Below are positions 6,250 through 61,799 of a stretch of DNA of 64,000 nt, piece by piece. Made by a program: the position numbers and the translations under genes. The number at the start of each line of letters is the position of its first letter. The stretch's first letter is position 1. Under the pieces are notes generated by a model. The model was not told the origin of the DNA and did not search any database. It saw nothing but the letters and a program-made list of their open reading frames with translations. Source of the stretch: Malacoraja senta. Its lineage: Eukaryota. The stretch lies in contig CM075988.1 of assembly GCA_038087875.1 (NCBI GenBank), positions 26,414,001 to 26,478,000 of the forward strand, given 5' to 3'.

Positions 6250-6765
6250 ACTCCACAGACTGGGCGATCGTTTCGCGGAATACCTTTGCTCAGTCCGCGT
6301 GAACCTGCCTGATCTCCCGGTTGCTGGACACTTTAATTCTCCTTCCCATTCCCACACTGACCTTTCTGTCCTTGGCCTCCTCCATTGCCAGAGTGAGGCT
6401 AAACGCAAATTGGAGGAACAGCATCTCATATTTCGCTTGGGCAGCTTACAGCCCAATGGTATGAATATTGATTTCTCTCACTTCAGGTAGCCCCGGCATT
6501 CCCTCTCTCCCCCACCCAAGTCGCACTAACTCCTCATTTTCACCCAACAAACAGCTTACGATGGCCTGTTTCCTTTATCATCGTTACTTTTTTGCATATT
6601 TTTCATTCATTGTTCTTTATCTCTCCACATCACCGTCTTTATCTCTCATTTCCCTTATCCCTAACCAGTCTGAAGACGGGTCTCGACCCGAAACATGACC
6701 CATTCCTTCTCTCCAGAGATGCAGCCTGTCCCGCTGAGTTACTCCAGCTTTTTGTGTCTACTTTC
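6250..6765 (+). mobile_element. Penelope-like element 3' fragment (GIY-YIG endonuclease C-terminus plus terminal repeat)
   Basis: RLGDRFAEYL...PVAGHFN...RKLEEQHLIFRLGSLQPNGMNIDF resembles the end of a PLE endonuclease. It is followed by the terminal sequence with CTGAAGA-stem-GAAAC at ~6670. Confidence 0.85.
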
Positions 6766-6983
6766 ATTTTCGTTCCTATTTTTGCTTCCCAAGAGATAAT
6801 TTCCTTCCCTTTCACTTAATGTACAGAATCTCAAAAGATCACTCCCTCCCCATTTAGTTCTCTTGTATTGAATTGGAACATACCAATCCCTCGTTTGCTT
6901 ATATCCCACCATGTAGAATACCAAACCATCCAACTCTTTACATTCAATCCAACTGTGTACAATCGCAGTGGTTGTGTTTGTAC

Positions 6984-7200
6984 CTTCACACAAAACCATT
7001 AAAAGGGTCTTGCTGCGGTGGACTTTGTTCCACAATCTAGGGATGCGAAGATCGCAGATGAAGTTGCCATTGTCAGAGCACGTCACGTTGGTTATGAGAA
7101 TGGAGCCATTTTTCTTTCTGATGTCACCTATCCACTTTAGCCTCTGGGTGAACCTGTTGCCTTGCACCACCTCACTGTGGTCTCGGAGGTAAAACAAAAT
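6984..7200 (-). CDS. JAML/MPZL-family Ig receptor, second half of the V-set domain
   Basis: ILFYL...RFTQRLKWIGD...NGSILITNVTCSDNGNFIC contains the DxGx(Y/F)xC motif. CAG acceptor, GT donor, 217 bp, phase 0 to phase 1. Confidence 0.88.
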
Positions 7201-7805
7201 CTGTGTTGGAATAAAGAAGGAAAATAACTAAAAGGAAACAGTTCTCCATCAATTTCACCGATGAAAATTGCACTTGTTAAATGCAGAGTTGGATTATCCC
7301 TGCCCTGTCTTTATTAACATTTCCCAGAGGTGATACTTTTTAATATGATATCCAATAGATGCGACACTGACAAGTCCTGTATGTGTTGTCCATTTCTAAT
7401 ATCGCTGATATTGCCTTCTTGAACAGCGCGAATGCATATATCAGAGGTGCACAGTGCAGCGATGTAGAGTTTAGACCCAGCAATCACGAAAGATGACGAT
7501 TTGTTTCCAAATCCGGAAGGTATGTGACCTGGATGGGAACTTGCAGCTGATGGAAAACTCATGTACCCGCTGTCAGCTCTTCCTGGATGGTAAAACATGC
7601 AGGACTGGGAAGTCCAGTGGAAGCAAATGTAGGTGCTGTAATGTGTTCCAGAGGTGGCAGGAGAATGGGGTTGAGTAGGATGAATAGATCAGCCATGATT
7701 GAATGGCCTAATTCTACACCTTTGTCATTGGCCTTTCAAGTGGATTAAATCAGTGCACTGTTTTCATTGGTGAGGGTTGGTAGAGGCAGCAGGGTTTACA
7801 CTCAC

Positions 7806-7975
7806 CGCCTTCTCTCCAGTGCCATTATAAGGGGAGTACAACCATTCCAGCTTGATGTTGCGCATATCAGTGTGTTCGTGGTAGTCAAACATGCAGTCTA
7901 ACCGTAGATCCTTTCCCTGTTTCACAACCAGGTACTCTGGGGTATAGATACTAACAGCTGAGACTGGCCAGACAT
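7806..7975 (-). CDS. JAML/MPZL-family Ig receptor, first half of the V-set domain
   Basis: [23 protein letters not shown]...IKLEWLY provides the B-strand Cys and C-strand Trp. TAG acceptor, GTGAGT donor, 170 bp, phase 1 to phase 0. Confidence 0.88.
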
Positions 7976-8014
7976 CTACAAGGTAAAAGAAACCATCTGA
8001 ACTTAGACATCGAC

Positions 8015-9425
8015 ATACAGTGACACACAGACAGTGACAGACAAACAGACAGTGGCAGACAGACAGTGACAGACAGACAGACAGTGACAGACAGATAGAC
8101 AGCGACAGACAGACAGACAGGGACAGACAGACAGCGATAGACAGACAGTGACAGACAGACAGCGACAGACAGCGACAGACAGGCAGTGACAGACTGACAG
8201 TGACAGACAGACAGTGACAGACGGACAGGGACAGAGACAGACAGACAGCGACAGACAGACAGCGACAGACAGACAGCGACAGACAGACAGCGACAGACAG
8301 ACAGCGACAGACAGACAGACAGTGACAGACAGTGGCAGACAGACAGTGACATACAGACAGTGACAGACAGACAGTGACAGACAGACAGACAGTGACAGAC
8401 AGACAGTGACAGACAGACAGTGGCAGACAGACAGTGGCAGACAGACAGTGACAGACAGACAGTGACAGACAGACAGTGACAGACAGACAGTGACAGACAG
8501 ACAGACAGTGACATACAAACAGACAGTGACATACAAACAGACAGTGACAGACAGACAGTGACAGACAGACAGACAGTGACAGACAGACAGACAGTGACAG
8601 ACAGACAGACAGTGACAGACAGACAGACAGACAGTGACAGACAGACAGACAGACAGTGACAGACAGACAGTGACAGACAGATAGCGACAGACAGGCAGTG
8701 ACAGACAGACAGACAGTGACAGACAGACAGACAGTGACAGACAGACAGTGACATACAAACAGACAGTGACAGACAGACAGTGACAGACAGTGACAGACAG
8801 ACAGACAGTGACAGACAGACAGACAGTGACAGACAGAGTGACAGACAGATAGCGACACAGACAGTGACAGACAGACAGTGACAGACAGACAGTGACAGAC
8901 AGACAGACAGTGACAGACAGACAGTGACATACAAACAGACAGTGACAGACAGACAGTGACAGACAGTGACAGACAGACAGACAGTGACAGACAGACAGAC
9001 AGTGACAGACAGACAGTGACATACAAACAGACAGTGACAGACAGACAGACAGTGACAGACAGACAGACAGTGACAGACAGACAGTGACATACAAACAGAC
9101 AGTGACATACAAACAGACAGTGACAGACAGACAGTGACAGACAGTGACAGACAGACAGACAGTGACAGACAGACAGACAGTGACAGACAGAGTGACAGAC
9201 AGACAGTGACAGACAGATAGCGACACAGACAGTGACAGACAGACAGTGACAGACAGACAGACAGTGACAGACAGACAGACAGTGACAGACAGAGTGACAG
9301 ACAGACAGTGACAGACAGACAGTGACAGACAGACAGACAGTGACAGACAGGCAGTGACAGACAGGCAGTGACAGACAGACAGACAGTGACAGACAGACAG
9401 ACAGTGACAGACAGACAGTGACAAA
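8015..9425. repeat. Compound (GACA)n/GACAGT microsatellite, ~1.4 kb, intronic
   Basis: Direct observation; it produces the spurious Cys/Leu/Ser/Val ORFs. Confidence 0.97.
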
Positions 9426-11439
9426 CATCGCAGAGTCGAGTTGAGCTGGGTTAATTTCCATCCAAGAGGATGCTGCACCAACTATCTGTAATTCTATTTA
9501 CAGGACACTTAAACCTCTTGATTCGAGTTCAGCCCGTGACTGACTCACGGATATCTCTTACTCTATATATAATATCCAAAACATGGTTAGCTTTCATCTC
9601 TTTCCATCCCCTGATACCGGATATACTGTATTTATGCACAATTATCACTCTGTAATTCACTCCTAAATGTTTATGAATTTATACAAGGAAGACAAAAATG
9701 CTGGAGAAACTCAGGTGAGGCAGCATCTATGGAGCGAAGGAATAGGTGACGTTTTGGGTCTAGACCCTTCCTCAGACTTTATGCATAAACCCCTGAGCTT
9801 CTCTATTACATTCTGTTTGGTAATATATTTAAGAGTATTTGTTATTAACAACCTGCTTCATTTCAAGTTATCTGTTATAATCCACTCACTCACCTTGATT
9901 CTAGCTGAGAACTTTTCATCATTCTATGTGTAAAGCAGACAAACGCCAACATTATATTCAGTAGCCCAGCCACAGATCTCCAGGCATAATCGCCCCAAAC
10001 CATCTTTAGATTCTAGCCTCTGGTCTTTGATGGACAAACTTGCAATTCCAGAGCATTGATGCAAAGTATCTTTTGAAGTGTTGTCACATTTCTCCCGGGG
10101 TCTGATAAATGACAGCTCACTCTATGTAACCAAGCGAGCATTGCTACTTTAATCTTGGGGATTTTAATTTTGCTAACATGTAACCCCCATGATATGGTGT
10201 TTGGTCACAGACCTGTGAAAGACCATATTAACCACATCAACAACACTACTCTTTACAATCCTCTTATTGTTCTTCTAAACATTCTATTAAATGAGTAAAG
10301 AGAATTAGTCTTGAACAAATTGGGACTGGCTTGGTGTACTTATTACTTAATTGAGAGTCAGCTTGGGATGTCCATGCCACCAGTACAGGAAGAAACAGAG
10401 ACAAACTCTAAAGTGGTGTTTGAAGCAGATACATTCGCAATGTTGAAGAGACATTTAGACAGGTACCTGAACAGGCAAGGAATAGAGGGATATAGATCAA
10501 GTGCAGGGAGATCGTGGTAGTTTAATTTGGTGTTATGGTCGCTGCTGACACAGTGGCCTTAAGGGTCTGTTCCTGTGATGTACTTTGCTATATGCCTTGT
10601 TCTCAATAGAATTTAAAGGCAGCTGAAATCTCCCTACATAGGCAGTACGTTTAGTTTCCAAATAAGGCTTTCTTTGAAGAAATATAATCACTCCTTGTTT
10701 TAACCTGAAGTACTTATTCACATTAAAAGTTAAATTGGTCTGCAGCGTGCTAGCTGTTGTTGGTAAAATTCAGGTGCATGCAATGGAAACTGCAGGTGGT
10801 TTGTGGTTGGGCAAGAGGAAGGGATTTTGTGAAGTGATTTCCCCTTTATTGTAAATTACTGCTGCAGCTCTGCAGTAAAGTGTTCAACTGTGTATGGTCA
10901 AAGTGTCCACATAATTACAATTGAGCAAGGATCCACCATCATGTGGCTGTCCGCAGTCAAGTGGGCTTTAAACCTAGCTCCTGAAGGTTCCCCATGGCTA
11001 AAGAGTTCAGAAAAAGGGAATGTGGCTGGCATTCAATACTGAGGGTTTAGGTCAGAGAGCAGGGGATAGTTGTGATGCTGTATAATAGGTTGGATACATG
11101 GTTACAGGGGAATGGGTAAAGGGATATGAGAATGGGCAGGTATGAATGAGAGGGGGGGGGGGTAACATGCTCACCCTGAGGTCAACATTACAGGTAAAGT
11201 CTAGTCCAACACACCATGTATTATACTGTACATGGATCCATGGAGCCCCCTTGCACTGATGCACCTTGGACTCCATTCCACCTGAGACACTAGAGTGGGG
11301 ATTTCATTGACTTCTCATTGGGATTGACAGATTCTGTGGCACTATTTGAAGGGTGGCTATGGAGATTTTGCCAACCGCCATTCATTCTTTAATCACTTGG
11401 TAGTGTTGTAGGTCGTGAGAAGTGTTATCTAAGGCTAGA

Positions 11440-31044: not shown

Positions 31045-31975
31045 AGACAAGTATGACACAAAGCTGGGTGGCAGTGTGAACTATGAAGAGGATGTTAGGA
31101 GGTTGCAGGGTGACCTGGACAGGTTGAGTGTGTGGGTAGATGCGTGGCAGATGCAGTATAATGTAGATAAATGTGAGGTTATCCACTTTGGCGGCAAAAA
31201 CAAGGGGGCAGATTATTATCTCAATGAGGTTAGGTTAGGTAAGGGGGAGGTGCAGCGAGACCTGGGTGTCCTTGTACACCAGTCACTGAAAGTTGGAGTG
31301 CAGGTACAGCAGGCAGTGAAGAAAGCTAATGGAATGTTGGCCTTCATAACAAGAGGATTTCAGTATAGGAGTAAAGAGGTTCTTCTGCAGTTGTATAGGG
31401 CTCTGGTGAGACCACATCTGGAGTATTGTGTACAGTTTTGGTCTCCTTATTTGAGGAAGGACATCCTTGTGATTGAGGCAGTGCAGCGTAGGTTCACGAG
31501 ATTGATCCCTGGGATGGTGGGACTGTCATATGAGGAAAGTTGAAAAGACTAGGCTTGTATTCACTGGAGTTTAGAAGGATGAGGGGGAGATCTTATAGAA
31601 ACATATAAAATTATAAAAGGACTGGACAAGCTAGACGCAGGAAAAACGTTCCCAATGTTGGGCTAGTCCAGAACTAGGGGGCCACAGTCTTAGAATAAAG
31701 GGGAGGCCATTTAAGATTGAGGTGAGAAAAAACATTTTCACCCAGAGAGTTGTGAATTTGTGCAATTCCCTGCCACAGAGGGCAGTGGAGGCCAAATCAC
31801 TGGATGGATTTAAGAGAGTTAGATAGAGCTCTAGGGGCTAGTGGAATCAAGGGATATGGGGAGAAGGCAGGCACGGGTTATTGATTGGGGACGATCAGCC
31901 ATGATCACAATGAATGGCGGTGCTGGCTCGAAGGGCCGAATGGCCTCCTCCTGCACCTATTTTCTATGTTTCTAT
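31045..31975 (+). mobile_element. CR1 LINE 3' fragment, nested in an older CR1
   Basis: DTKLGG...WQMQYNVDKC...[13 protein letters not shown]; (TTTCTATG) tail. Confidence 0.9.
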
Positions 31976-32968
31976 GCCAAATGCCTTCTTCACTGCTCTA
32001 TCCACCCATGTTGCCATTTCCAGGGATCAATAAACTTGGATCCGAAGGTCACTCTTTATTTCCACACTCCTGAGACTCCTGGCATGTATTGCTCTTGTCC
32101 TGTAAGCATTTGATATCTCTCCTCCCCCCCCCCACCCCACCCCACTCTCCTCCCTTCTTCCCTCCCCCCTCCAAATCCAACAAAAACAAAATATGGTACC
32201 TTTCCTGACAAAGAGGAGAGAAAAGGAAAATGAAGAATTGCATATCTATCGTACCTTATAGGTTGAAGATCCTGAACTGGGAAGCGGGAAGTCTTGATCC
32301 CTGTTCTGATAAAGGGTCTTCGACCCAAAATGCTTCTTTCCACAAATGCTGCTTGCCCTGCTGAGGGAGGGATTCCTGTATTTTCTGTTTTTTTATGCCA
32401 TATCGTACCTTTAAAGTAAAGCAGTTTACATGTTAAGCTACAAGCTCCCAAAAGCAGTAATGTGATAACCACGTTATTAATTGTCGCATTGATCAACAGA
32501 CACATAATAACCAAAACACCTTGCACGTCGCTAATGCAAAGGAAACAAAACTGCTGTCGAATCCCACACCAAGTACCCAATTTGTTGCAAACACGGAATT
32601 CGCTGGAAAAGCTCATCAGGTCACCATATTGTGTGGTGCTGCTGTAAGGAAGAATGTCATTGTTCTGGGTACACAAAAATGCTGGAGAAACTCAGCGGGT
32701 GCAGCAGCATCTATGGAGCGAAGGAAATAGGTAACGTTTCGGGCCGAAACCCTTCTTCAGAATGTCATTGTTCTATCTGGGACATGACAATAAAACACTC
32801 TTGACCCTTGAGGTCGGACGGCATCTTCGGAAGAGAAGAATGTTTCGGATCTGCGACCACCCTTCGCTAGATGGGGAAGAGAGCGCTGCGAGTTAGTATT
32901 CGGGGGGGGAAGAGTCTAATCATCTGCAGACTGCTCGGGATATGTTTGACTGGGTATCAGAACATTAC

Positions 32969-33335
32969 CTGGCTCGCTGGGTCCACGGGCCGGTACGAGG
33001 GCTGAGCGCTGTGTCCCGAGGCTGGGTCTGGGGTGTGAGCGCTGGGTCCACGGGCTGGGCTCTGGGGTGTGAGCGCTGGGTCCACGGGCTGGGCTCTGGG
33101 GTGTGAGTGCTGGGTCCCCCGGGGCTGGGTCCACGGGCCGGTGCGAGGGCTGAGCGCTGTGTGTCCCGGGGCTGGGTCTGGGCTCTGGGCGCTGTGTGTC
33201 CCGGGGCTGGGCTCTGGGGTGTGAGTGCTGGGTCCCCCGGGGCTGGGTCCACGGGCCGGTGCGAGGGCTGAGCGCTGTGTGTCCCGGGGCTGGGTCTGGG
33301 CTCTGGGCGCTGTGTGTCCCGGGGCTGGGCTCTGA
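32969..33335 (-). repeat. GC-rich minisatellite within the probable non-coding first exon of SC5D
   Basis: Nested units, including a ~118-bp unit present twice. Minus-strand donor CCAG|GTAATG at 32969/32968, just downstream of the CCAAT cluster. Confidence 0.65.
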
Positions 33336-33560
33336 TAGGGCGGAGCCGGCGACTGACTGACTGCCTGCCAGTTGCAGCAGCCAATCGCAGGCGGCCGTGT
33401 GACCCCCCCGCCTCCTCTGGAGGGGCCGGGACAGCCAATTGGCGGAGGGGGCAGGGATGCGGCGGGCCAATCACACACTCTGCGTCAGCTCAGCTGCGGC
33501 TGCCATTGGCCGAGCAGTCGTCTGACCAATGACATCAGGATAGCGCCACCCGCGGCGCTC
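33335..33560 (-). promoter_or_regulatory. SC5D: SC5D CpG-island promoter with CCAAT boxes and an SRE-like site
   Basis: CCAAT/ATTGG at 33381, 33435, 33467, 33505 and 33526; ATCACACAC at 33470; GC box at 33338; CRE-like TGCGTCA and TGACATCA. Confidence 0.75.
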
Positions 33561-33564
33561 TTCA

Positions 33565-34692
33565 AGCACTGGGACAGGGGGCACTGGGACAGTGGTGGTG
33601 GGGGCACTGGGACAGGGGGCACTGGGACAGTGGCGGTGGGGGCACTGGGACAGGGGGCACTGGGACAGTGGCGGTGGGGGCACTGGGACAGGGGGCACTG
33701 GGACAGTGGCGGTGGGGGCACTGGGACAGGGGGCACTGGGACAGTGGCGGTGGGGGCACTGGGACAGGGGGCACTGGGACAGTGGCGGTGGGGGCACTGG
33801 GACAGTGGCGGTGGGGGCACTGGGACAGGGGGCACTGGGACAGTGGCGGTGGGGGCACTGGGACAGGGGGCACTGGGACAGTGGCGGTGGGGGCACTGGG
33901 ACAGGGGGCACTGGGACAGTGGCGGTGGGGGCACTGGGACAGTGGCGGTGGGGGCACTGGGACAGGGGGCACTGGACAGTGGCGGTGGGGGCACTGGGAC
34001 AGGGGGCACTGGGACAGTGGCGGTGGGGGCACTGGGACAGGGGGCACTGGGACAGTGGCGGTGGGGGCACTGGGACAGTGGCGGTGGGGGCACTGGGACA
34101 GGGGGCACTGGGACAGTGGCGGTGGGGGCACTGGGACAGTGGCGGTGGGGGCACAGGGACAGTGGCGGTGGCGGCATTGGGACAGGGGGCACTGGGACAG
34201 TGGCGGTGGCGGCATTGGGACAGTGGCGGTGGGGGCACTGGGACAGTGGCGGTGGGGGCACAGGGACAGTGGCGGTGGCGGCATTGGGACAGTGGCGGTG
34301 GGGGCACTGGGACAGTGGCGGTGGGGGCACTGGGACAGGGGGCACTGGGACAGTGGCGGTGGGGGCACTGGGACAGTGGCGGTGGGGGCACTGAGACAGT
34401 GGCGGTGGGGGCACTGGGACAGTGGCGGTGGTGGCATTGGGACAGGAGGCACTGGGACAGTGGCGGTGGGGGCACTGGGACGGGGCACTGGGACAGTGGC
34501 GGTGGGGGCACTGGGACAGTGGCGGTGGGGGCAGTGGGACAGGGGGCACTGGGACAGTGGCGGTGGCGGCATTGGGACAGGAGGCACTGGGACAGTGGCG
34601 GTGGGGGCACTGGGACGGGGCACTGGGACAGTGGCGGTGGGGGCACTGGGACAGTGGCAGTGGCGGCACTGGGACAGGAGGCACTGGGACAG
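33565..34692. repeat. G-rich minisatellite (GGGGGCACTGGGACA / GGGGGCACTGGGACAGTGGCGGT units)
   Basis: Direct observation; ~1.1 kb of alternating 15- and 23-bp units. Confidence 0.97.
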
Positions 34693-35006
34693 GTAAATGG
34701 TAGCAAATTGAGGAATGCAGTTGAACAGAGGGATCTAGGAATAACTGTGCATAGTTCCCTGAAGGTGGAATCTCATGTAGATAGGGTGGTAAAGAAAGCT
34801 TTTGGTGTGCTGGCCTTTATAAATCAGAGCATTGAGTATAGAAGTTGGGATGTAATGTTAAAATTGTACAATGCATTGGTGAGGCCAATTCTGGAGTATG
34901 GAGTACAATTTTGGTCGCGTAATTATAGGAAAGATGTCAACAAAATAGAGAGAGTACAGAGGAGATTTACGAGAATCTTGCCTGGGTTTTAGCACCTAAG
35001 TTACAG
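34693..35006 (+). mobile_element. CR1 LINE fragment running into the assembly gap
   Basis: EQRDLGITVHSSLK...LVRPILEYGVQFW. Confidence 0.88.
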
Positions 35007-35206
35007 NNNNNNNNNNNNNNNNNNNNNNNNNNNNNNNNNNNNNNNNNNNNNNNNNNNNNNNNNNNNNNNNNNNNNNNNNNNNNNNNNNNNNNNNNNNNNN
35101 NNNNNNNNNNNNNNNNNNNNNNNNNNNNNNNNNNNNNNNNNNNNNNNNNNNNNNNNNNNNNNNNNNNNNNNNNNNNNNNNNNNNNNNNNNNNNNNNNNNN
35201 NNNNNN
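35007..35206. other. Assembly gap (200 N)
   Basis: Run of N. Confidence 1.
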
Positions 35207-51804: not shown

Positions 51805-53660
51805 TACATAGAAACATAGAAAATAGGTGCAGGAGGAGGCCATTCGGCCCTTCGAGCCAGCACCGCCATTCATTGTGATCATGGCTGATCGTCCCCTATC
51901 AATAACCCGTGCCTGCCTTCTCCCTATATCCCTTGACTCCACTAGCCCCTAGAGCTCTATCTAACTCTCTTAAATCCATCCAGTGACTTGGCCTCCACTG
52001 CCCTCTGTGGCAGGGAATTCCATAAATTCACAACTCTCTGGGTGAAAAAGTTTTTTCTCACCTCAGTCTTAAATGACCTCCCCATTATTCTAAGACTGTG
52101 GCCCCTGGTTCTGGACTCGCCCAACATTGGGAACATTTTTCCTGCATCTAGCTTGTCCAGTCCTTTTATAATTTTATATGTTTCTATAAGATCCCCCTCA
52201 TCCTTCTAAACTCCAGTGAATACAAGCCTAGTCTTTTCAATCTTTCCTCGTATGACAGTCCCGCCATCCCAGGGATCAATCTCGTGAACCTACGCTGCAC
52301 TTCCTCAATCACAAGGATGTCCTTCCTCAAATTAGGAGACCAAAACTGTACACAATACTCCAGATGTGGTCTCACCGGAGCCCTATACAATTGCAGAAGA
52401 ACCTCTTTACTCCTATACTGAAATCCTCTTGTTATGAAGGCCAATTTTCCATTAGCTTTCTTCACTGCCTGCTGTACCTGTAAGCCAACTTTCAGTGACC
52501 GGTGTACAAGGACGCCCAGGTCTCGCTGCACCTCCCCCTTACCTAACCTAACCCCATTGAGATAATAATCTGCCCCCTTGTTTTTGCCGCCAAAGTTGAT
52601 AACCTCACATTTATCTATATTATACTGCATCTGCCACGCATCTGCCCACTCACTCAACCTGTCCAGGTCACCCTACAACCTCCTAACATCCTCGTCACAG
52701 CTCACACTGCCACCCAGCCTTGTGTCATCCGCAAACTTGCTAGTGTTGCTCCTAATTCCCTCTTCCAAATCATTAATATATATGGTAAACTGTTGTGGCC
52801 CCAGCACCGAGCCTTGCGGCACTCCACTCGCCACTGCCTGCCATTCTGAAAAGGACCCGTTCACTCCTACTCTTTGCTTCCGGTCTGCCAACTAATTTTC
52901 TATCCATGTCAACACCCTACCACCAATACCATGTGCTCTAATTTTAGTCACCAGTCTCCCGTGCTGGACCTTATCAAAGGCTTTCTGAAGGTCTAGATAC
53001 ACTACATCCACTGGCACCCCTTCATCCATTTTACTTGTCACATCCTCAAAAAATTCCAGAAGATTAGTCAAGCATGATTTCCCTTTCATAAATCCATGTT
53101 GACTTGGACTAATCCTTTTACTGCTATCCAAATGCTCCATTATTACCTCTTTAATAATTGACTCCAGCATCTTTCCCACCACCGAAGTCACGCTAACTGG
53201 TCTGTAATTCCCCGTTTTCTCTCTCGCTCCTTTCTTGAAAAGTGGGATAACATTAACTATCCTCCAATCCACAGGAACTGATCCTGAATCTATTGAACAT
53301 TGGAAAATGATCACCAATGCGTCCACTATTTCTAGAGCCACCTCCCTGAGGACCCTGGGATGCAGACCATCAAGTCCAGGGGATTTATCATCCTTCAGTC
53401 CCATTAGCCTACCCAATACTATTTCTCGCCTAATGAAAATTTCTTTCAGTTCCTCTACCCCCCTTAGATCCTCTGTCCCCCAGTACATCTGGGAGATTGT
53501 TTGTGTCTTCCTTAGTGAAGACAGATCCGAAGTACCTATTCAACTCTTCTGCCATTTCCTTGTTGCCCATAATAATTTCACCCATGTCTGCCTTCAAGGG
53601 ACCCACATTTGTCTTTGCTACTCTTTTTCCCTTAACATATCTAAAAAAGCTTTTATTGTC
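51805..53660 (-). mobile_element. CR1 LINE, 5'-truncated (RT domain with stops)
   Basis: KSPGLDGLHPRVL...GNYRPVS...GVPQGSVLGP...KFADDT; same subfamily as 31045-31975. Confidence 0.92.
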
Positions 53661-55045: not shown

Positions 55046-56112
55046 GGTACCTGGATGTGGCGCCGACCGACGAGAAGCCGAAGCAAAGAAGTGGAAGCCA
55101 AATAACCGAATGGAAACGAGGCCGAAACACCAAATAACCGAAAGTGTACGAAGCCGAAACGCCAACTAACCGAAAGAGTGGGACGCCTAAATGCAAACTA
55201 ACCGAAAGGGCAGGACGCCTAAAAGCCAACTAACCGAAAGGCTGCGTCGCCTAAAAGCAAACTTACCGAATGGCCGCTCTGCCGAAACGCCACCTACCCA
55301 AAAGGCGGCGTCGTCTTACAAGCCAACGAACCGAATGCCGCTCAACAGAAAAGTCAAATAACGGACGTGACATTGCCGGGGGCGGGACTTGTCAGCGATT
55401 GGTCCAGACCCCCGCGTCCATCACATCACTGTGGAGGGAGACGAGGCGGAGGGTGGCCGTGGGAGAGTGGGGGCTGTCCCGAGGGATGCGCTCCTTCGGC
55501 CGCTTACAACTTGGTGCTTGGGTTCAGATTGCCCAGTCACCTATGGCTTGTGTGGGGAAATGACCCCCACCTTCCCGTCTCCACCGGTGGGAGGGTGGGG
55601 TCATTTTCCCCACACAAGCCATAGGTGACTGGGCAATCTGAACCCAAGCACCAAGTTGTAAGCGGCCGAAGGTGCGCATCCCTCGGGACAGCCCCCACAC
55701 TCCTACGGCACCCTCTGCGGGCTGTGGGTCGGGTGGAGCAGAGGTTTTGGACAATGTTCATCCCTCCACAGTGATGTGATGGACACGGGGGTCTGGACCA
55801 AGTCCCGCCCCCCGGCCACGTCATGTCCGTTATTTGACTTTTCTGTTGAGCGGCATTCGGTTCGTTGGCTTGTAGGCGACGCCGCCTTTCGGGTAGGTGG
55901 TGTTTCGGCAGAGCGGCCATTCGGTAAGTTTGCATTTAGGCGTCCCACCCTTTCAGTTAGTTGGCGTTTCGGCTTCGTTTCCATTCGGTTAGTTGCCGTT
56001 TCGGCTTCGTTTCCATTCGGTTATTTGGCGTTTCGGCTTTGTTTCCATTCGGTTATTTGGCTTCCACTTCTTTGCTTCGGCTTCTCATCCGTCGGCGCCA
56101 CGTCCGCACACG
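55046..56112. mobile_element. Foldback/Mutator-like element (near-complete palindrome, 9-bp TSD)
   Basis: Long inverted arms meet near 55585; modular AACCGAA subrepeats; CCTTTGGAC duplicated at 55037-55045 and 56113-56121. Confidence 0.85.
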
Positions 56113-56807: not shown

Positions 56808-57940
56808 ACAAATTAATGAACGTTAGTTTAAGTAAAGGGGTAAGAAATTTAGAGGGGATTTGAAGGAGACAATTTCACTGATTGGGATGAATGCAGGTTG
56901 GCTTGGACCTGATGGTTGAATGGTTTGTTTTCATGCTGCATGACTATCACAACATCTAACATGGTATTCATTTGAAGAGAGGATTATAAATATAATGAAT
57001 CAGCATATGGCGTGAAAATGTATTTATCCCCTATGCTGACCTCTGATGGAAAATCAAGGGAAAATTATGAGACCTTTAGGTAGACAATTGTCAATATAGT
57101 CCAAGTATATATTTGGAGGATGGGTGGAGTCTGACACCACCTCTTCTTTCCTAACCTCACTAGCCCTTTACCCAGTTTCTTTCATCTTTCTCCCAGCTGG
57201 TTCCATTCCTACACAACCTACAAGGTCTCAAATCTTCCCACCCACACTGGTTCATCTGCATGCTCATTATCCCTCCCTTTTTAGTTCCACTTTATCACCT
57301 TATAAAATTCCAGAATCTGCGGCCCTTTGGTGTCTTCAATTATGACCTTCCAGCCTATTTATTTACCTCCCTCCTTCATATCCGGTTCCATCTGCCCATA
57401 ATTCCCTTCCTCACCTCTTTATACTGATGATCTGTCCTCTCCGCACTCTATCTTGATGCAGGGTCTTGACCCAAAACATTGAATATCCCTCTGCCTGCAC
57501 AAATGCTGCCCGTCCTACTGAGTTCCTCCAGCAGTTTATTTTTTGCTCAAGGTATGTTGTTGGCCTTTAAATGTGAACACTCCTGTTTTGAAGGGAACTA
57601 AGTGCATTTTTAATTTAATCTCCAATATTTTAAAAAGATACAATGCTGTAGATCTTGTTTCTTTATAATCTCAGAACTACTTACTACAGTGGGTGTTGTA
57701 AATCACTTCAAAGCATATAAGATTTACACACATCTTTAATCAGCACATTAACTTGGCAGCATTACCAAACGAGGTGTTGTCAGTTCATCCTGGCTGCTTC
57801 AACTAACGGTGCTGGGAATGGGCGTTAGTATAAATGTCATAATGGGGTGGAGTTAGTGATGCTAGCTAAGTGTGATTGATTCACATGCATCATCAATCTA
57901 CATCCTTCCCCCTAAAGATTAAATGTGGAGAGGAAGCATA

Positions 57941-59600
57941 TTAAACATACTCGCCATACCTGTCTGGTGGTCTACTAACACGGCCCGAACGCGTGCGGAC
58001 CCAACCATCCCCTCCCTCAACTGAAGGATTAGGCGGAGAGGCTGAAGGTGAAAACCGCACGGGAGAGGATTGTGGTGACCGAGGGGGGAAACATGCGGTG
58101 GGTGAAACCCCGTGGTTAGTGGAGACAGATGGACGTGGGGGGGTGCCAGGCATGCGGGGACGGGCGGGAGACATTGCGGAAGGCGGCTGGAACTGGAGCG
58201 GCGGAGCATAGGGATCAGCAGGCGGTGGTTGGGGCTCCTTCACAGCAAGCAGGTGTTGTCGACTTCTCTGGTAAACCGCTCCCTCACAGTCCACAAGGTA
58301 CGATCGCGGCTCATCAGTCGGGCGCACAACAATGCCCAGACGAGAATGTCCAGTTGGAGTTCGTAGACGAACGACCTGGCCCGGCAGTAGAGGCTGGAGT
58401 GGTCTGCTGGAACTGTCGTATGACCGTTTTTGGATATCGTGCTTCTCTTGGAGACGTTGCTGGATAGTGGCGGGCTTCAACACCCGAGGAACCAGCCGCT
58501 GTTGTGCGATGGGGACCGGAGACCTTGTCGCCCTCGACAGCAGCCGCTGTGCTGGTGACCCCAAGATTCCGTCTCTTGCGGTGTTTCTGAGATTCAGTAG
58601 ATCGAGATAGACGTCAGACTTTGAAATGCGCCCTCCCGCCAGCAAGTGCTTGGCGCTTCTGACAGCGCGTTCAGCGAGTCCATTACTCTGTGGATATTCG
58701 GGACTGCTTGTGACGTGCTGGAAGTTCCATCGGTCGGCGAAAAGCTTGAACAAGTGGCTGGTGAACTGTGGACCATTGTCGGTTCTCAGAATAACAGGAA
58801 TGCCATGGTCTGCGAAATGTCTTTTCAGCTTCCTGATGACCATCTCCGACGTGAGGAAGGTCAGTTGGTCAAGTTCAAACCAGTTGGAGAACGAGTCGAC
58901 CAGAACGAGGTAGTGCTTACCGCACCATTCGAAAATGTCCGCAGCCAGCGACGACCATGACAGTGCTGGTGGAGGTTGTTGCAGAAGGGGTTGCCGCTGC
59001 TGATGAGGTGCAAGATTGTTGCAACTGGGGCAGGAGGCTACGCGGTCCCGGATGTATGTGGCCATTCCGGGCCAGTAGAACAGATCCCGGGTGCGTGCCA
59101 GTGTGGAGTCAGCTCCTGGGTGACCGTTGTGTACCTCTTTGAAGTATTCGTCTTGTAGCGATGCAGGTACAACTACCTTGTGGCCCTTGACGACCACACC
59201 ATCCTGAACCACCAGTTCATCGCGGACCAAGAAGTACGGCTGCACCTCTGTGGGCGTGTTGGATTGTTTGTCTGGCCAGCCTGTTTTGATGATGGACGAG
59301 AGGGCTTGAAGCGTATCATCCTTGGGAGTGTGCGCGGCCAGGGTGCGCAGTTGCTGGAGACTAGACCGAAACCGAGAACCATGAAATTCTCCCGTTCGTG
59401 TGGGTGTTGTTCGCAAGATGATCGAGGGGCACGAGAGACGGTGTCAGCAACATGCATGTCCTTGCCCTTTGTGTAGGTAATAGAAAAGTCGTACCACTGC
59501 AGCTGCATCATCATGCGCTGCAAACGAGTTGGGGCGGCGTGGATAGGCTTGTTCAAGATTGTCATCAGTGGTTGGTGGTCCGTCTCAACCATGAACGTGT
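57941..59600 (-). CDS. pol: Gypsy pol remnant: RNase H end (frameshifted) plus integrase
   Basis: ETDHQPL RNase H motif; integrase HHCC (HNGH...CPSC) and D,D35E (AADIF, TDNG, AERAV). Confidence 0.9.
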
Positions 59601-59601
59601 T

Positions 59602-59626
59602 GTGTGGGTTCGTATCCCACTCCTGA
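59602..59626 (+). other. tRNA-Leu 3'-arm-derived fragment at the internal junction of the LTR element
   Basis: GTGGGTTCGTATCCCACTCCTGA versus vertebrate tRNA-Leu(CAG) GTGGGTTCGAATCCCACTCCTGA (recalled); the single mismatch is at position 58. Confidence 0.75.
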
Positions 59627-59729
59627 ATGTGTGTAAATCTTATATGCTTTGAAGTGATATACATGGCGTCAGAAATGGTCCTATCCACTCCTCTTGTATA
59701 ACGGTTTTTTATTTTATCTTTTGTGAGTT

Positions 59730-60752
59730 TTGCTTTACTTTACGATGGCTAATTCTTGTCGGAAGCCTGAGCCTCTTGTCTTTGATGCCGATATCAGCGA
59801 ACGGTGGGCCACGTTTGAAATTGATTACCAGCACTACATGAACATTGTACACCGAAATGAACCAGATGCTGTTAAGGCCTCTCTCCTGCTCAACCTTGCG
59901 GGACCTGGTGCCCTTCATCGATCCAGAATATTCCGTTATGCTCCGGCTATCCGTGATGCCAATGACCAGGTAATTACACCGGCGGAGTCTCCTACTGACC
60001 CTAATGTTTTGCTGCGTAAACTGGCTCAGATCTGTGACCTGCCCTCAAATCACATTTTAGACAGGGCAAGGTTTTTCTCTCGTCGTCAACTTCCCGGGGA
60101 ACGAGTGGACTCATTTATTTCTTCTTTAATGTATCTAGTCCAACGTAGTCGATTTCAAGAAATGCCATTGGATCAGTTGACTGATCAGTTAACGAGGGAT
60201 ATTTTAGTGAATGGTATCACCGATCAAAAGCTCAGATCAGAGCTCCTGAGACGGCCAGAGTTATTGCTAGATGACGCGGCGCATGCATGCAGAACGGCTG
60301 AACTTGTTGATCCTATAGACATTTCGCATGAAAGCAATACCATCAATCTGACGGGCCTCACTAGGCAGCGGACATACACAGATAACAGCCGATCTAAGAT
60401 CCAAGCTAGCCAGGCAGCTCTCAGCGTTCCTCCACAGAAATGTCCTAACTGCGGCTATATACACAACAGGCAATCCACCTGCCCCGCCCTCGGGAAGGCT
60501 TGTAATTACTGCAAAAAGCTAAATCACTTTGCCTCAGCCTGTCGGGCTGCTATCAGGGCCCGAGGAAAGAATGCGCCCAGTCCCAAGTCTAATCTCAATT
60601 TTTTGCAACGAGACAGCAACACACTGACTCCTCACTTCCAGCTCGAAGCCGCCCCCGAATATATTCCATTTGACTCGCAAGACGACCCTACTGTTTACAT
60701 GTTACAGCATGCTGCTGCCAAGAACTCTGATCCCACTTCTGACACCATGTAA
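59730..60752 (+). CDS. gag: Gypsy gag with two Cys/His knuckles, inverted relative to the LTRs and pol
   Basis: Open 340-aa frame with RARFFSRRQLPGERVDSFISSL, RDILVNGI, CPNCGYIH...C and CNYCKKLNHFASAC. Confidence 0.9.
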   Translation: MLYFTMANSCRKPEPLVFDADISERWATFEIDYQHYMNIVHRNEPDAVKASLLLNLAGPGALHRSRIFRYAPAIRDANDQVITPAESPTDPNVLLRKLAQICDLPSNHILDRARFFSRRQLPGERVDSFISSLMYLVQRSRFQEMPLDQLTDQLTRDILVNGITDQKLRSELLRRPELLLDDAAHACRTAELVDPIDISHESNTINLTGLTRQRTYTDNSRSKIQASQAALSVPPQKCPNCGYIHNRQSTCPALGKACNYCKKLNHFASACRAAIRARGKNAPSPKSNLNFLQRDSNTLTPHFQLEAAPEYIPFDSQDDPTVYMLQHAAAKNSDPTSDTM

Positions 60753-61799
60753 ATCACTTCAAAGCATATAAGATTTACACACATCTTTAATCAGCACATT
60801 AACTTGGCAGCATTACCAAACGAGGTGTTGTCAGTTCATCCTGGCTGCTTCAACTAATGGTGCTGGGAATGGGCGTTAGTATAAATGTTATAATGGGGTG
60901 GAGTTAGTGATGCTAGCTAAGTGTGATTGATTCACATGCATCATCAATCTACAGGTGTGACTTTATATAGTCAATTATAAATCTCCAGGAACCATTTGGC
61001 TTATCAACCTGCTATACGCATGAGTGATTTATTAAAGCCACTGGGTGCAGTACTCCCTGTTGTAACATATTTATAAAACCAAGAAGAATTCAGCTTATTT
61101 TAGAAACCTTTATTTGTGGCTTTGGATGGTGGCCATCTATGACTATCTCATCCATCATCCAGCCACAGTTGTGATTATGTATGTCAAAAGCAGGATTCCC
61201 CAGTCTGTATGAATGTATGCCTTGACAGAAACTTACACTGATATCTCCCCTAATTTGCCCATTTGCTAATTGCAGCAATTTACTGAATTAAATGCAACAT
61301 TACACTATCACATCAGAGCCAAGCATGCGTCAATTTCTGGGTGTGTATTTACTAATGTTGAGGATAACAATCCCAATTTTCAAATCTAAATTTTAGTTCA
61401 TCAGTTCTGGATCCTTTCTGTGAATGGTCAGAAACAATAGCCTGTTTAGTTTGCCACAATTACCCCAAGGGTGTGTTGAGAGTGGTGTAAAACACTCTAG
61501 TATTTCAAAAATATTTGCCAGGACTATCTCTTTCCTTCCACTAGAGTTTGTTTTATGCAATTGCATTTGGTGCTACTTACCCATATAAGAGAGCCTGACA
61601 CCATCCTGCTCTTAGACTTGGGTCCAGGAGCTGATGCTACCGAGAGTTAGGGCTCTGATTGGGTCCATGAAGATGTACAGTACATGTTCTTTACTTTGGT
61701 AATAAAGGTCTTTCCTTTATAAAGAGTATGATGCAATGAGATAAAGTTATATTATTAAATTTAAATTGTTTATTAAGTTCTGATAGGCATAGATAGGAT

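What the first reader, a model, noticed from the sequence alone, without database searches (positions are those of the whole stretch)
57697..60953. Young Gypsy element with an intact gag inverted against its own LTRs and pol
Seen: the LTRs, PBS, PPT and integrase all read on the minus strand, but a 340-aa gag ORF reads on the plus strand. The inverted block starts with 37 nt of LTR end (59627-59663, one mismatch to the flanking LTRs) and its own PBS TGGCGTCAGAA (59664-59674). Protease and RT are missing, yet the TSD is intact and the LTRs differ at only 2 of 206 positions. Inference: the rearranged molecule was built during reverse transcription and then integrated as a unit. LTR-driven transcription would give antisense-gag RNA, a possible source of silencing small RNAs, or this could be the founder of a non-autonomous family.
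Basis: partly seen in the sequence, partly recalled or inferred. Interest (0 to 1): 0.8.

Follow-up and report, generated by a model that had tools for sequence, protein, structure and literature searches.

The report
Retrotransposon copying accident with tRNA scar
A dead Gypsy retrotransposon copy, likely in a skate or ray relative, carries its gag region backwards next to a 23-base piece of its own primer tRNA, which marks it as a likely one-off reverse-transcription accident rather than a new kind of element.

Summary
The structure is in the sequence as described: 206-bp LTRs (2 differences), a 5-bp target duplication, PBS, PPT and integrase on minus, and a 1.1-kb LTR-end/PBS/gag block on plus. 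At 59604-59626, between the inverted block and RNase H, lie 23 nt of leucine tRNA (positions 49-71), reaching 10 nt past any PBS. It has T at position 58, where 128 of 129 natural matches have A, as expected from reverse transcriptase reading through m1A58. The other junction falls exactly after 18 tRNA-complementary bases, the normal plus-strand stop. So the molecule was most likely built by three template switches during reverse transcription and then integrated. Corrections: the 'intact gag' is the cut-off front of a single gag-pol frame, with its stop supplied by the inverted LTR; the pol remnant has a frame break; 'young' is only relative. Remobilisation looks unlikely, because the predicted RNA locks its PBS in a 52-bp stem. 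The internal junctions were not seen in independent reads; copy number and expression are untested. Verdict: new variant of a known kind (defective LTR copy), interest 0.35.

The parts
57692..57696 (.). Target-site duplication, left copy (5 bp)
   Evidence: identical to 60954-60958; contigs of two related organisms join the two flanks without the element (table 8, X4 record 26, X12 record 10)
57697..57902 (-). 3' LTR, 206 bp, TG...CA
57903..57913 (-). Polypurine tract
57941..59353 (-). Integrase region, open for 470 codons to its stop
   Evidence: Pfam Integrase_H2C2 and rve
59354..59603 (-). C-terminal part of RNase H and linker; in a different frame from integrase (break near 59350-59362)
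   Evidence: tblastn with polyprotein homologues, 67% to P0124
59604..59626 (+). 23 nt of leucine tRNA, positions 49-71 (T-arm plus part of the acceptor strand); T at tRNA position 58 (59613); junctions 3 (59603/59604) and 2 (59626/59627) bound it
   Evidence: T-arm match in Rfam scan, weak on its own, E 0.75; 129 natural matches, 128 with A at that site, 75 of 78 ARAGORN-called genes holding the pattern are tRNA-Leu
59627..59663 (+). Last 37 nt of an LTR, inverted relative to the flanking LTRs; one mismatch (59659) where both full LTRs agree
59664..59678 (+). Second PBS (genomic type: 15-nt match with 2 substitutions, then diverges)
59679..59744 (+). gag leader, inverted relative to the LTRs
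   Evidence: sequence between PBS2 and the ATG
59745..60752 (+). gag ORF, 335 aa: front of the gag-pol frame cut just before protease; last codons and stop come from the inverted PBS and LTR
60730..60747 (-). 5' PBS: exactly 18 nt of tRNA-Leu complement; junction 1 lies at its end
60748..60953 (-). 5' LTR, 206 bp; holds an 8-bp inverted repeat at its 3' end (60772-60779 / 60748-60755)
60954..60958 (.). Target-site duplication, right copy
   Evidence: X2 record 21 runs from 60928 through it into the flank with 0 other letters

Best explanation
This is a defective Gypsy insertion with an inverted LTR-end/PBS/gag block and a 23-nt tRNA-Leu tract, most likely built by three template switches in one round of reverse transcription and then integrated whole as a likely one-off dead copy. 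Most likely path (inferred): the plus-strand strong-stop DNA, ending at 18 tRNA-copied bases, jumped not to the PBS but to a plus-sense gag template just before protease (junction 1). It copied that template backwards through leader, PBS and 37 nt of LTR end. It then realigned on a tRNA-primed minus strand through the 8-bp inverted repeat in the LTR end (junction 2), copied the tRNA from position 71 to 49, reading through m1A58 with a wrong base, and joined the RNase H part of the minus strand (junction 3). The product had two proper LTR ends, so integrase inserted it with a 5-bp duplication. Shown: the anatomy, the tRNA origin of the tract, the register at junction 2, the empty site in relatives. 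Inferred: the strand and order of the switches, single copy number, lack of function.
For: tRNA tract: 22 of 23 nt match the tRNA-Leu pattern, bounded on both sides (window has T before and A after, where 126 and 125 of 129 natural matches have C); the 10 nt beyond the PBS match 9 of 10, chance about 3e-5 at a fixed place. The one mismatch is at position 58: A in 128 of 129 natural matches; the single T case (L119) is a tRNA fragment that carries CCA and is not called as a tRNA gene. m1A58 stops plus-strand synthesis and m1A causes misincorporation on read-through (PMC8599865 passages and discussion; PMC4787781 passages). The 5' PBS is exactly 18 nt of tRNA complement, whereas the block's own PBS matches for 15 nt with 2 substitutions and Steamer-type elements have a 12-bp PBS (PMC8905726 section 9 part 1). 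Junction 2 is in exact register with the normal LTR-end/tRNA join through the 8-bp inverted repeat (rough post hoc chance 0.3%). D-P at the gag break is shared by 3 of 3 homologues that reach it, which implies a few bases of microhomology with the PBS end. The two tRNA copies differ at one site that also varies among tRNA-Leu genes, fitting two primer molecules. Both LTRs share a letter (57766/60817) that almost no contig of the family has, fitting one template for both LTRs. Intact target duplication and empty orthologous site in two related organisms.
Against: No listed contig or joint spans either internal junction (641 joints and 270,523 pieces were not shown), so the orientation of the block rests on this assembly alone. 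The m1A58 argument is one base; a later point mutation or an unusual host tRNA gene cannot be excluded, since no host genome was held. PMC4787781 names U at +1 as the context most prone to this misincorporation; here the +1 base is A. Junction 2 needs extension from a 5-nt unpaired tail, which is demanding. Microhomology at junctions 1 and 3 could not be read at DNA level because no parent DNA was obtained. The same three junctions would exist in a molecule with gag in normal sense that was flipped later between the 52-bp arms.
Confidence: 0.7

Rival explanations
1. Reverse transcription made the three junctions with gag in normal sense, and the 1.1-kb block was flipped afterwards between the 52-bp inverted arms (59627-59678 / 60733-60784), by host recombination or by the assembler.
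For: The arms are 94% complementary with a 32-bp identical run; flipping between them keeps all three junction sequences. No independent read spans the internal junctions.
Against: 32 bp is short for homologous recombination (general knowledge). An assembly that resolves a 3.3-kb member of a very abundant family with both unique flanks is probably long-read based, which would not confuse a 1.1-kb block (inference). In this route junction 2 has no homology to guide it and the register match would be chance.
Confidence: 0.15
2. Two steps: an earlier round gave a deleted element (LTR, over-long tRNA copy, RNase H, integrase, LTR), and the inverted gag block was later pasted into its tRNA tract by templated repair or a second event, leaving a 13-bp duplication.
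For: 13-nt direct repeats with one mismatch do flank the block (59614-59626 / 60730-60742). Over-long tRNA copies next to LTR-like ends occur elsewhere: 7 of 129 matches.
Against: The block has no poly(A) tail and no terminal repeats of its own. The one mismatch falls on the site that varies among tRNA-Leu genes; a later mutation at that site has a chance of about 0.9%. One repeat ends exactly at the 18-nt stop, and the other end is in register with the LTR inverted repeat; a random insertion explains neither.
Confidence: 0.07
3. The rearranged form is a spreading non-autonomous subfamily, or a copy kept by selection because its LTR-driven RNA is antisense to the PBS, leader and gag of the active family and silences it.
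For: Both LTRs, PPT and one PBS are in place; chimeric LTR copies can be remobilised in flies (PMC5131818 passages). The target family is very abundant: summed contig depth over gag is roughly 400 to 2,000 times that of the unique flanks in X1 and X2 (the tool warns this is no copy number).
Against: In the predicted transcript 15 of 18 PBS bases pair in a 52-bp stem with probability 0.97 or more (arm duplex -82.5 against -33.2 kcal/mol for an 18-bp primer duplex), and the second tRNA tract lacks the five bases that pair with the primer's 3' end. The leader, where packaging signals usually lie (general knowledge), is inverted. An open 1-kb gag frame at about 0.5% decay needs no selection (inference). 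One copy among very many family members would add little antisense RNA.
Confidence: 0.08

Closest known systems
Gypsy C-clade / Steamer-like LTR retrotransposons of aquatic animals (PMC8905726 passages and section 9 part 1; PMC11046912 passages)
   Same: LTR length near 200 bp, TG...CA ends, tRNA-Leu PBS, PPT, two zinc knuckles in gag, single gag-pol frame in relatives, homologues labelled K02A2.6-like.
   Different: This copy lacks protease, RT and the start of RNase H (about 500 codons of P0124), has gag inverted, two PBSs and an internal tRNA tract. Branch within the clade not determined: no reference tree was built.
Aberrant plus-strand transfer products of retroviruses (tRNA copied past m1A58; deletions starting at the PBS)
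   Same: A junction at the 18-nt stop and a tRNA copy running past position 58. PMC8599865 (discussion read) describes the over-run and holds that such HIV-1 products fail at transfer and do not integrate. PBS-anchored deletions in retroviral vectors (Pulsinelli and Temin 1991) are recalled, not read.
   Different: Here the over-run product was rescued by further switches, carries a 1.1-kb inversion, and reached the germline of an animal.
LTR-mediated retrocopies and chimeras formed by microsimilarity template switching (PMC5131818 passages)
   Same: Internal ORFs replaced by switched-in sequence between two LTRs, inserted as a unit.
   Different: The captured sequence is the element's own gag in antisense plus primer tRNA, not a host mRNA; that paper's text has no hit for 'inverted' or 'orientation'.

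Membership tests
Ty3/Gypsy LTR retrotransposon (derivative) | Two direct LTRs with TG...CA ends, PBS, PPT, short target duplication | tested here: met
Ty3/Gypsy LTR retrotransposon (derivative) | Domain order RNase H then integrase | tested here: met
Autonomous Ty3/Gypsy element | gag, protease, RT, RNase H, integrase co-oriented and open | tested here: not met
   protease and RT absent, gag inverted, frame break near 59350-59362
Gypsy C-clade / Steamer-like | tRNA-Leu PBS, LTR about 150-220 bp, single gag-pol frame, two zinc knuckles | tested here: met
   (single frame seen in relatives, not in this broken copy)
Gypsy C-clade / Steamer-like | Phylogenetic placement on RT/RNase H against reference elements | not testable with these tools
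   RT is missing from this copy and no named reference set was available; PMC8905726 says these structural features are shared among C-clade branches
Non-autonomous LTR family (TRIM/LARD-like) | Several insertions sharing the same internal structure at different sites | tested here: inconclusive
   one copy in the window; no genome held; junction-spanning contigs not among the rows shown
Non-autonomous LTR family (TRIM/LARD-like) | Usable PBS and packaging region on the LTR-driven RNA | tested here: inconclusive
   prediction only: PBS paired in a 52-bp stem, leader inverted
[quoted passage not shown] | Poly(A) tail and exact target duplication around the insert | tested here: not met
   no poly(A); the 13-nt flanking repeat has one mismatch and is tRNA sequence
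Antisense / piRNA source locus | Antisense transcript or small RNAs from the locus | not testable with these tools
   only contigs could be laid

The most novel reading that the evidence does not exclude
One reverse-transcription accident turned a Gypsy copy into a self-made silencer: its own LTR drives RNA antisense to the primer site, leader and gag of an abundant family, plus a 52-bp hairpin, and the host has kept it.
Probability: 0.07. Interest if true: 0.7.

Novelty: new variant of a known kind. Interest (0 to 1): 0.35.

Why it matters
As it stands it is a well-preserved germline record of reverse-transcriptase errors. One molecule holds both the normal stop at 18 tRNA bases and a likely read-through of m1A58 with a wrong base, and it shows that an over-run product can still be integrated if further switches rescue it. 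That suggests a cheap genome-wide test: tRNA tracts past position 58 inside LTR elements can mark which internal rearrangements arose in the particle, and record tRNA modification. It also shows a one-step route to an LTR-driven antisense-gag cassette. Without expression data or further copies it is one dead insertion, not a new system. My ten literature searches (listings read, seven papers opened) gave no report of this exact layout, but only searches were aimed at it and the library lacks most older virology papers.

Tried and rejected
No own genome is held, so copies could not be counted. Search of viral contigs with the junction-1 stretch found 0 matches and with the gag protein no relative. 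Run search: no RNA holder listed. I laid 4 of the 24 listed runs (X1, X2, X4, X12), all contigs; a repeat in the left flank filled the joint and loose-end tables, so the internal junctions were neither shown nor excluded. X2 may be the assembled sample itself (0 other letters in 1,701 flank bases), so it is not independent, and its right-junction contig holds only 26 LTR bases, under the tool's 31-base bar for bridging. The Rfam hit on the tract (tRNA-Sec model, E 0.75) is not significant alone and was used only as a lead. ARAGORN finds no tRNA gene in the window. The seven CCA-then-TG metagenome matches could not be confirmed as LTR ends: no gag-pol by tblastn with 6 homologues, no second LTR in the loci. 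Pfam scan of 80 stop-to-stop frames (77 of the 124 listed for 36-64 kb outside the element, plus 3 from further left) found no host exon near the element; only a V-set domain at 6742-7227 came near its cut-off, so whether the element sits in an intron is open. Rejected: chance match of the tRNA tract; a separately terminated gag gene; a LINE-type retrocopy of gag (no poly(A)). Look-ups of earlier findings by place, sequence and first word set were empty. No supplements were opened.
Full report
Observation. The element spans 57697-60953 (3,257 bp). Its LTRs are 206 bp and differ at two positions; the same five bases flank both ends. On the minus strand lie the 5' LTR, a PBS (60730-60747), a C-terminal piece of RNase H, integrase (open for 470 codons), a PPT (57903-57913) and the 3' LTR. 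On the plus strand, between 59627 and about 60729, lie the last 37 nt of an LTR (one mismatch), a second PBS, a leader and a 335-aa ORF with two zinc-knuckle motifs. No other copy is in the window.

Family and host. The gag ORF's best named relatives are little-skate proteins (42-57% identity), so the host is likely a cartilaginous fish (inference). Integrase relatives are mostly single polyproteins of about 1,350 aa, several labelled K02A2.6-like; 101 of the 122 homologues tested hit both strands of the element. LTR size, tRNA-Leu PBS, single frame and twin knuckles fit the Gypsy C-clade / Steamer-like group (PMC8905726 passages and section 9 part 1; PMC11046912 passages); no tree was built. 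The closest relative, P0124, is one frame from gag into integrase. The window ORF follows it to a D-P pair just before protease, then reads into the inverted PBS and stops in the inverted LTR; about 500 codons (protease, RT, start of RNase H) are gone. So the 'intact gag' is the cut front of gag-pol. The pol remnant changes frame near 59350-59362.

The missed part. Between the inverted block and RNase H, 59604-59626 is 23 nt of leucine tRNA, positions 49-71. A scan of metagenome contigs with this motif, two positions left open, gave 121 loci and 129 matches from 13 of 64 parts of the collection. ARAGORN without introns called 78 genes holding the pattern, 75 of them tRNA-Leu. At the open position in the T-loop (58) 128 of 129 have A; the window has T. 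The one other T (L119) is a tRNA 3' fragment that carries CCA and is not called as a gene. The tract stops sharply on both sides and reaches 10 nt past the 18 nt that a PBS can cover. m1A58 is the plus-strand stop signal (PMC8599865, passages and discussion), and RT misincorporates when it reads through m1A (PMC4787781, passages; that paper names U at +1 as the most prone context, and here +1 is A). An assembler cannot invent such a tract. The single base is strong but not conclusive, as host tRNA genes were not available.

The three junctions. Junction 1 (60729/60730): the 5' PBS is exactly 18 nt of tRNA complement, while the block's own PBS matches only 15 nt with two substitutions. This is what an unresolved plus-strand strong-stop end would look like. 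D-P at the gag break is present in 3 of 3 homologues that reach it, which implies a few shared bases with the PBS end (inferred from protein only). Junction 2 (59626/59627): the LTR end holds an 8-bp inverted repeat; read on minus, the junction lines up base for base with the normal LTR/tRNA join through that repeat, with five unmatched bases between. A rough, post hoc chance for this register is 0.3%. Junction 3 (59603/59604) joins tRNA position 49 to RNase H; microhomology could not be read. The two tRNA copies form a 13-nt direct repeat around the block with one mismatch, at a site that varies among tRNA-Leu genes (56 T and 8 C among 64 CAG genes).

Mechanism. The reading that explains all of this with one growing strand: plus-strand strong-stop DNA jumps to plus-sense gag of a second template, copies back through the PBS and 37 nt of LTR end, realigns on a tRNA-primed minus strand, reads the tRNA through position 58 to 49, joins the RNase H part of the minus strand, and both strands finish. 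The ends are normal, so integrase acts normally. I put 0.7 on 'made in reverse transcription, integrated as seen, one-off', and about 0.5 on this exact path. The block's arm has three mismatches in 52 nt, more than 0.5% decay would give (P about 0.002 for three, 0.025 for two), which fits a slightly different second template. Rivals: a later flip between the 52-bp arms, in vivo or in assembly (0.15); a two-step nested insertion (0.07); a spreading or selected form (0.08).

Independent data. Of 24 listed runs I laid four, all contigs. Organisms B (X4) and F (X12) each have a contig joining the two flanks without the element, so the insertion postdates those splits. Their flanks differ from the window by 4.8% (78 of 1,623) and 5.8% (104 of 1,800); X1 differs by 0.26% (4 of 1,539), X2 by 0 of 1,701. 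LTR divergence is 0.97% (95% interval 0.12-3.5%), about a fifth of the way to those splits. With the epaulette-shark rate of 7e-10 per generation (PMC10587355 passages) that would be millions of generations (illustrative, other species, one of the two changes is at a CpG). The family is very abundant in organism A by summed depth, which is not a copy number. Of 32 difference rows shown inside the element, 14 are places where 96% or more of the depth in both X1 and X2 differs from the window; two of these are the same site in both LTRs (529 rows hidden). One X2 contig runs from the last 26 LTR bases into the right flank. Nothing shown spans the internal junctions, so orientation and copy number remain untested.

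Function. If the 5' LTR is active, the RNA would be antisense to gag, leader and PBS. Folding 59590-60860 (minus) pairs 15 of 18 PBS bases in a 52-bp stem at probability 0.97 or more, and the second tRNA tract cannot pair with the primer's last five bases. Remobilisation therefore looks unlikely (prediction). No expression evidence was obtainable.

Comparison and novelty. It works like the aberrant strand-transfer and template-switch products known from retroviruses and LTR elements (PMC8599865; PMC5131818 passages; PBS-anchored vector deletions recalled, not read). PMC3832253 and PMC12789967 (passages) added nothing specific. Over-long tRNA-Leu copies next to LTR-like ends are not unique: 7 of the 129 matches have CCA then TG within one base, all with A at 58, none confirmed as LTRs. 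An earlier AI note in this scan describes a similar one-off RT accident in a fungal Gypsy copy (unchecked). I did not find this layout in the searches run. Verdict: real, a new variant of a known kind, interest 0.35.

Noticed in passing
L019, L027, L052, L071, L084, L100, L106: tRNA-Leu 3' tracts of 28 nt or more with CCA followed by TG within one base, like LTR ends with an over-long primer copy; L084 begins at the same tRNA position 49 as the window tract; L027/L071 and L019/L100 share sequence beyond the CCA.
   Followed up: partly
L119:294-330 (minus): tRNA-Leu 3' fragment with CCA and T at position 58, not called as a tRNA gene: a second likely fossil of m1A58 read-through in another organism.
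   Followed up: partly
window 57972-60731: In X1 and X2 summed contig depth over the 3' part of integrase is several times that over gag and the RNase H piece, which may mean many family copies deleted from the 5' side, or cross-mapping of related families.
   Followed up: no
window 6739-9497 (minus): Exon-like frames of an immunoglobulin V-set gene (Pfam V-set E 1.2e-05 at 6742-7227) with a long simple repeat at about 7950-9450.
   Followed up: no
window 55053-56105: About 1-kb imperfect palindrome, 79% identity to its own reverse complement.
   Followed up: no
window 32900-35206: GC-rich tandem arrays next to the only assembly gap (200 N at 35007-35206).
   Followed up: no
window 31053-31976 and 51807-52728: Two LINE RT fragments 95.6% identical in opposite orientation.
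   Followed up: no
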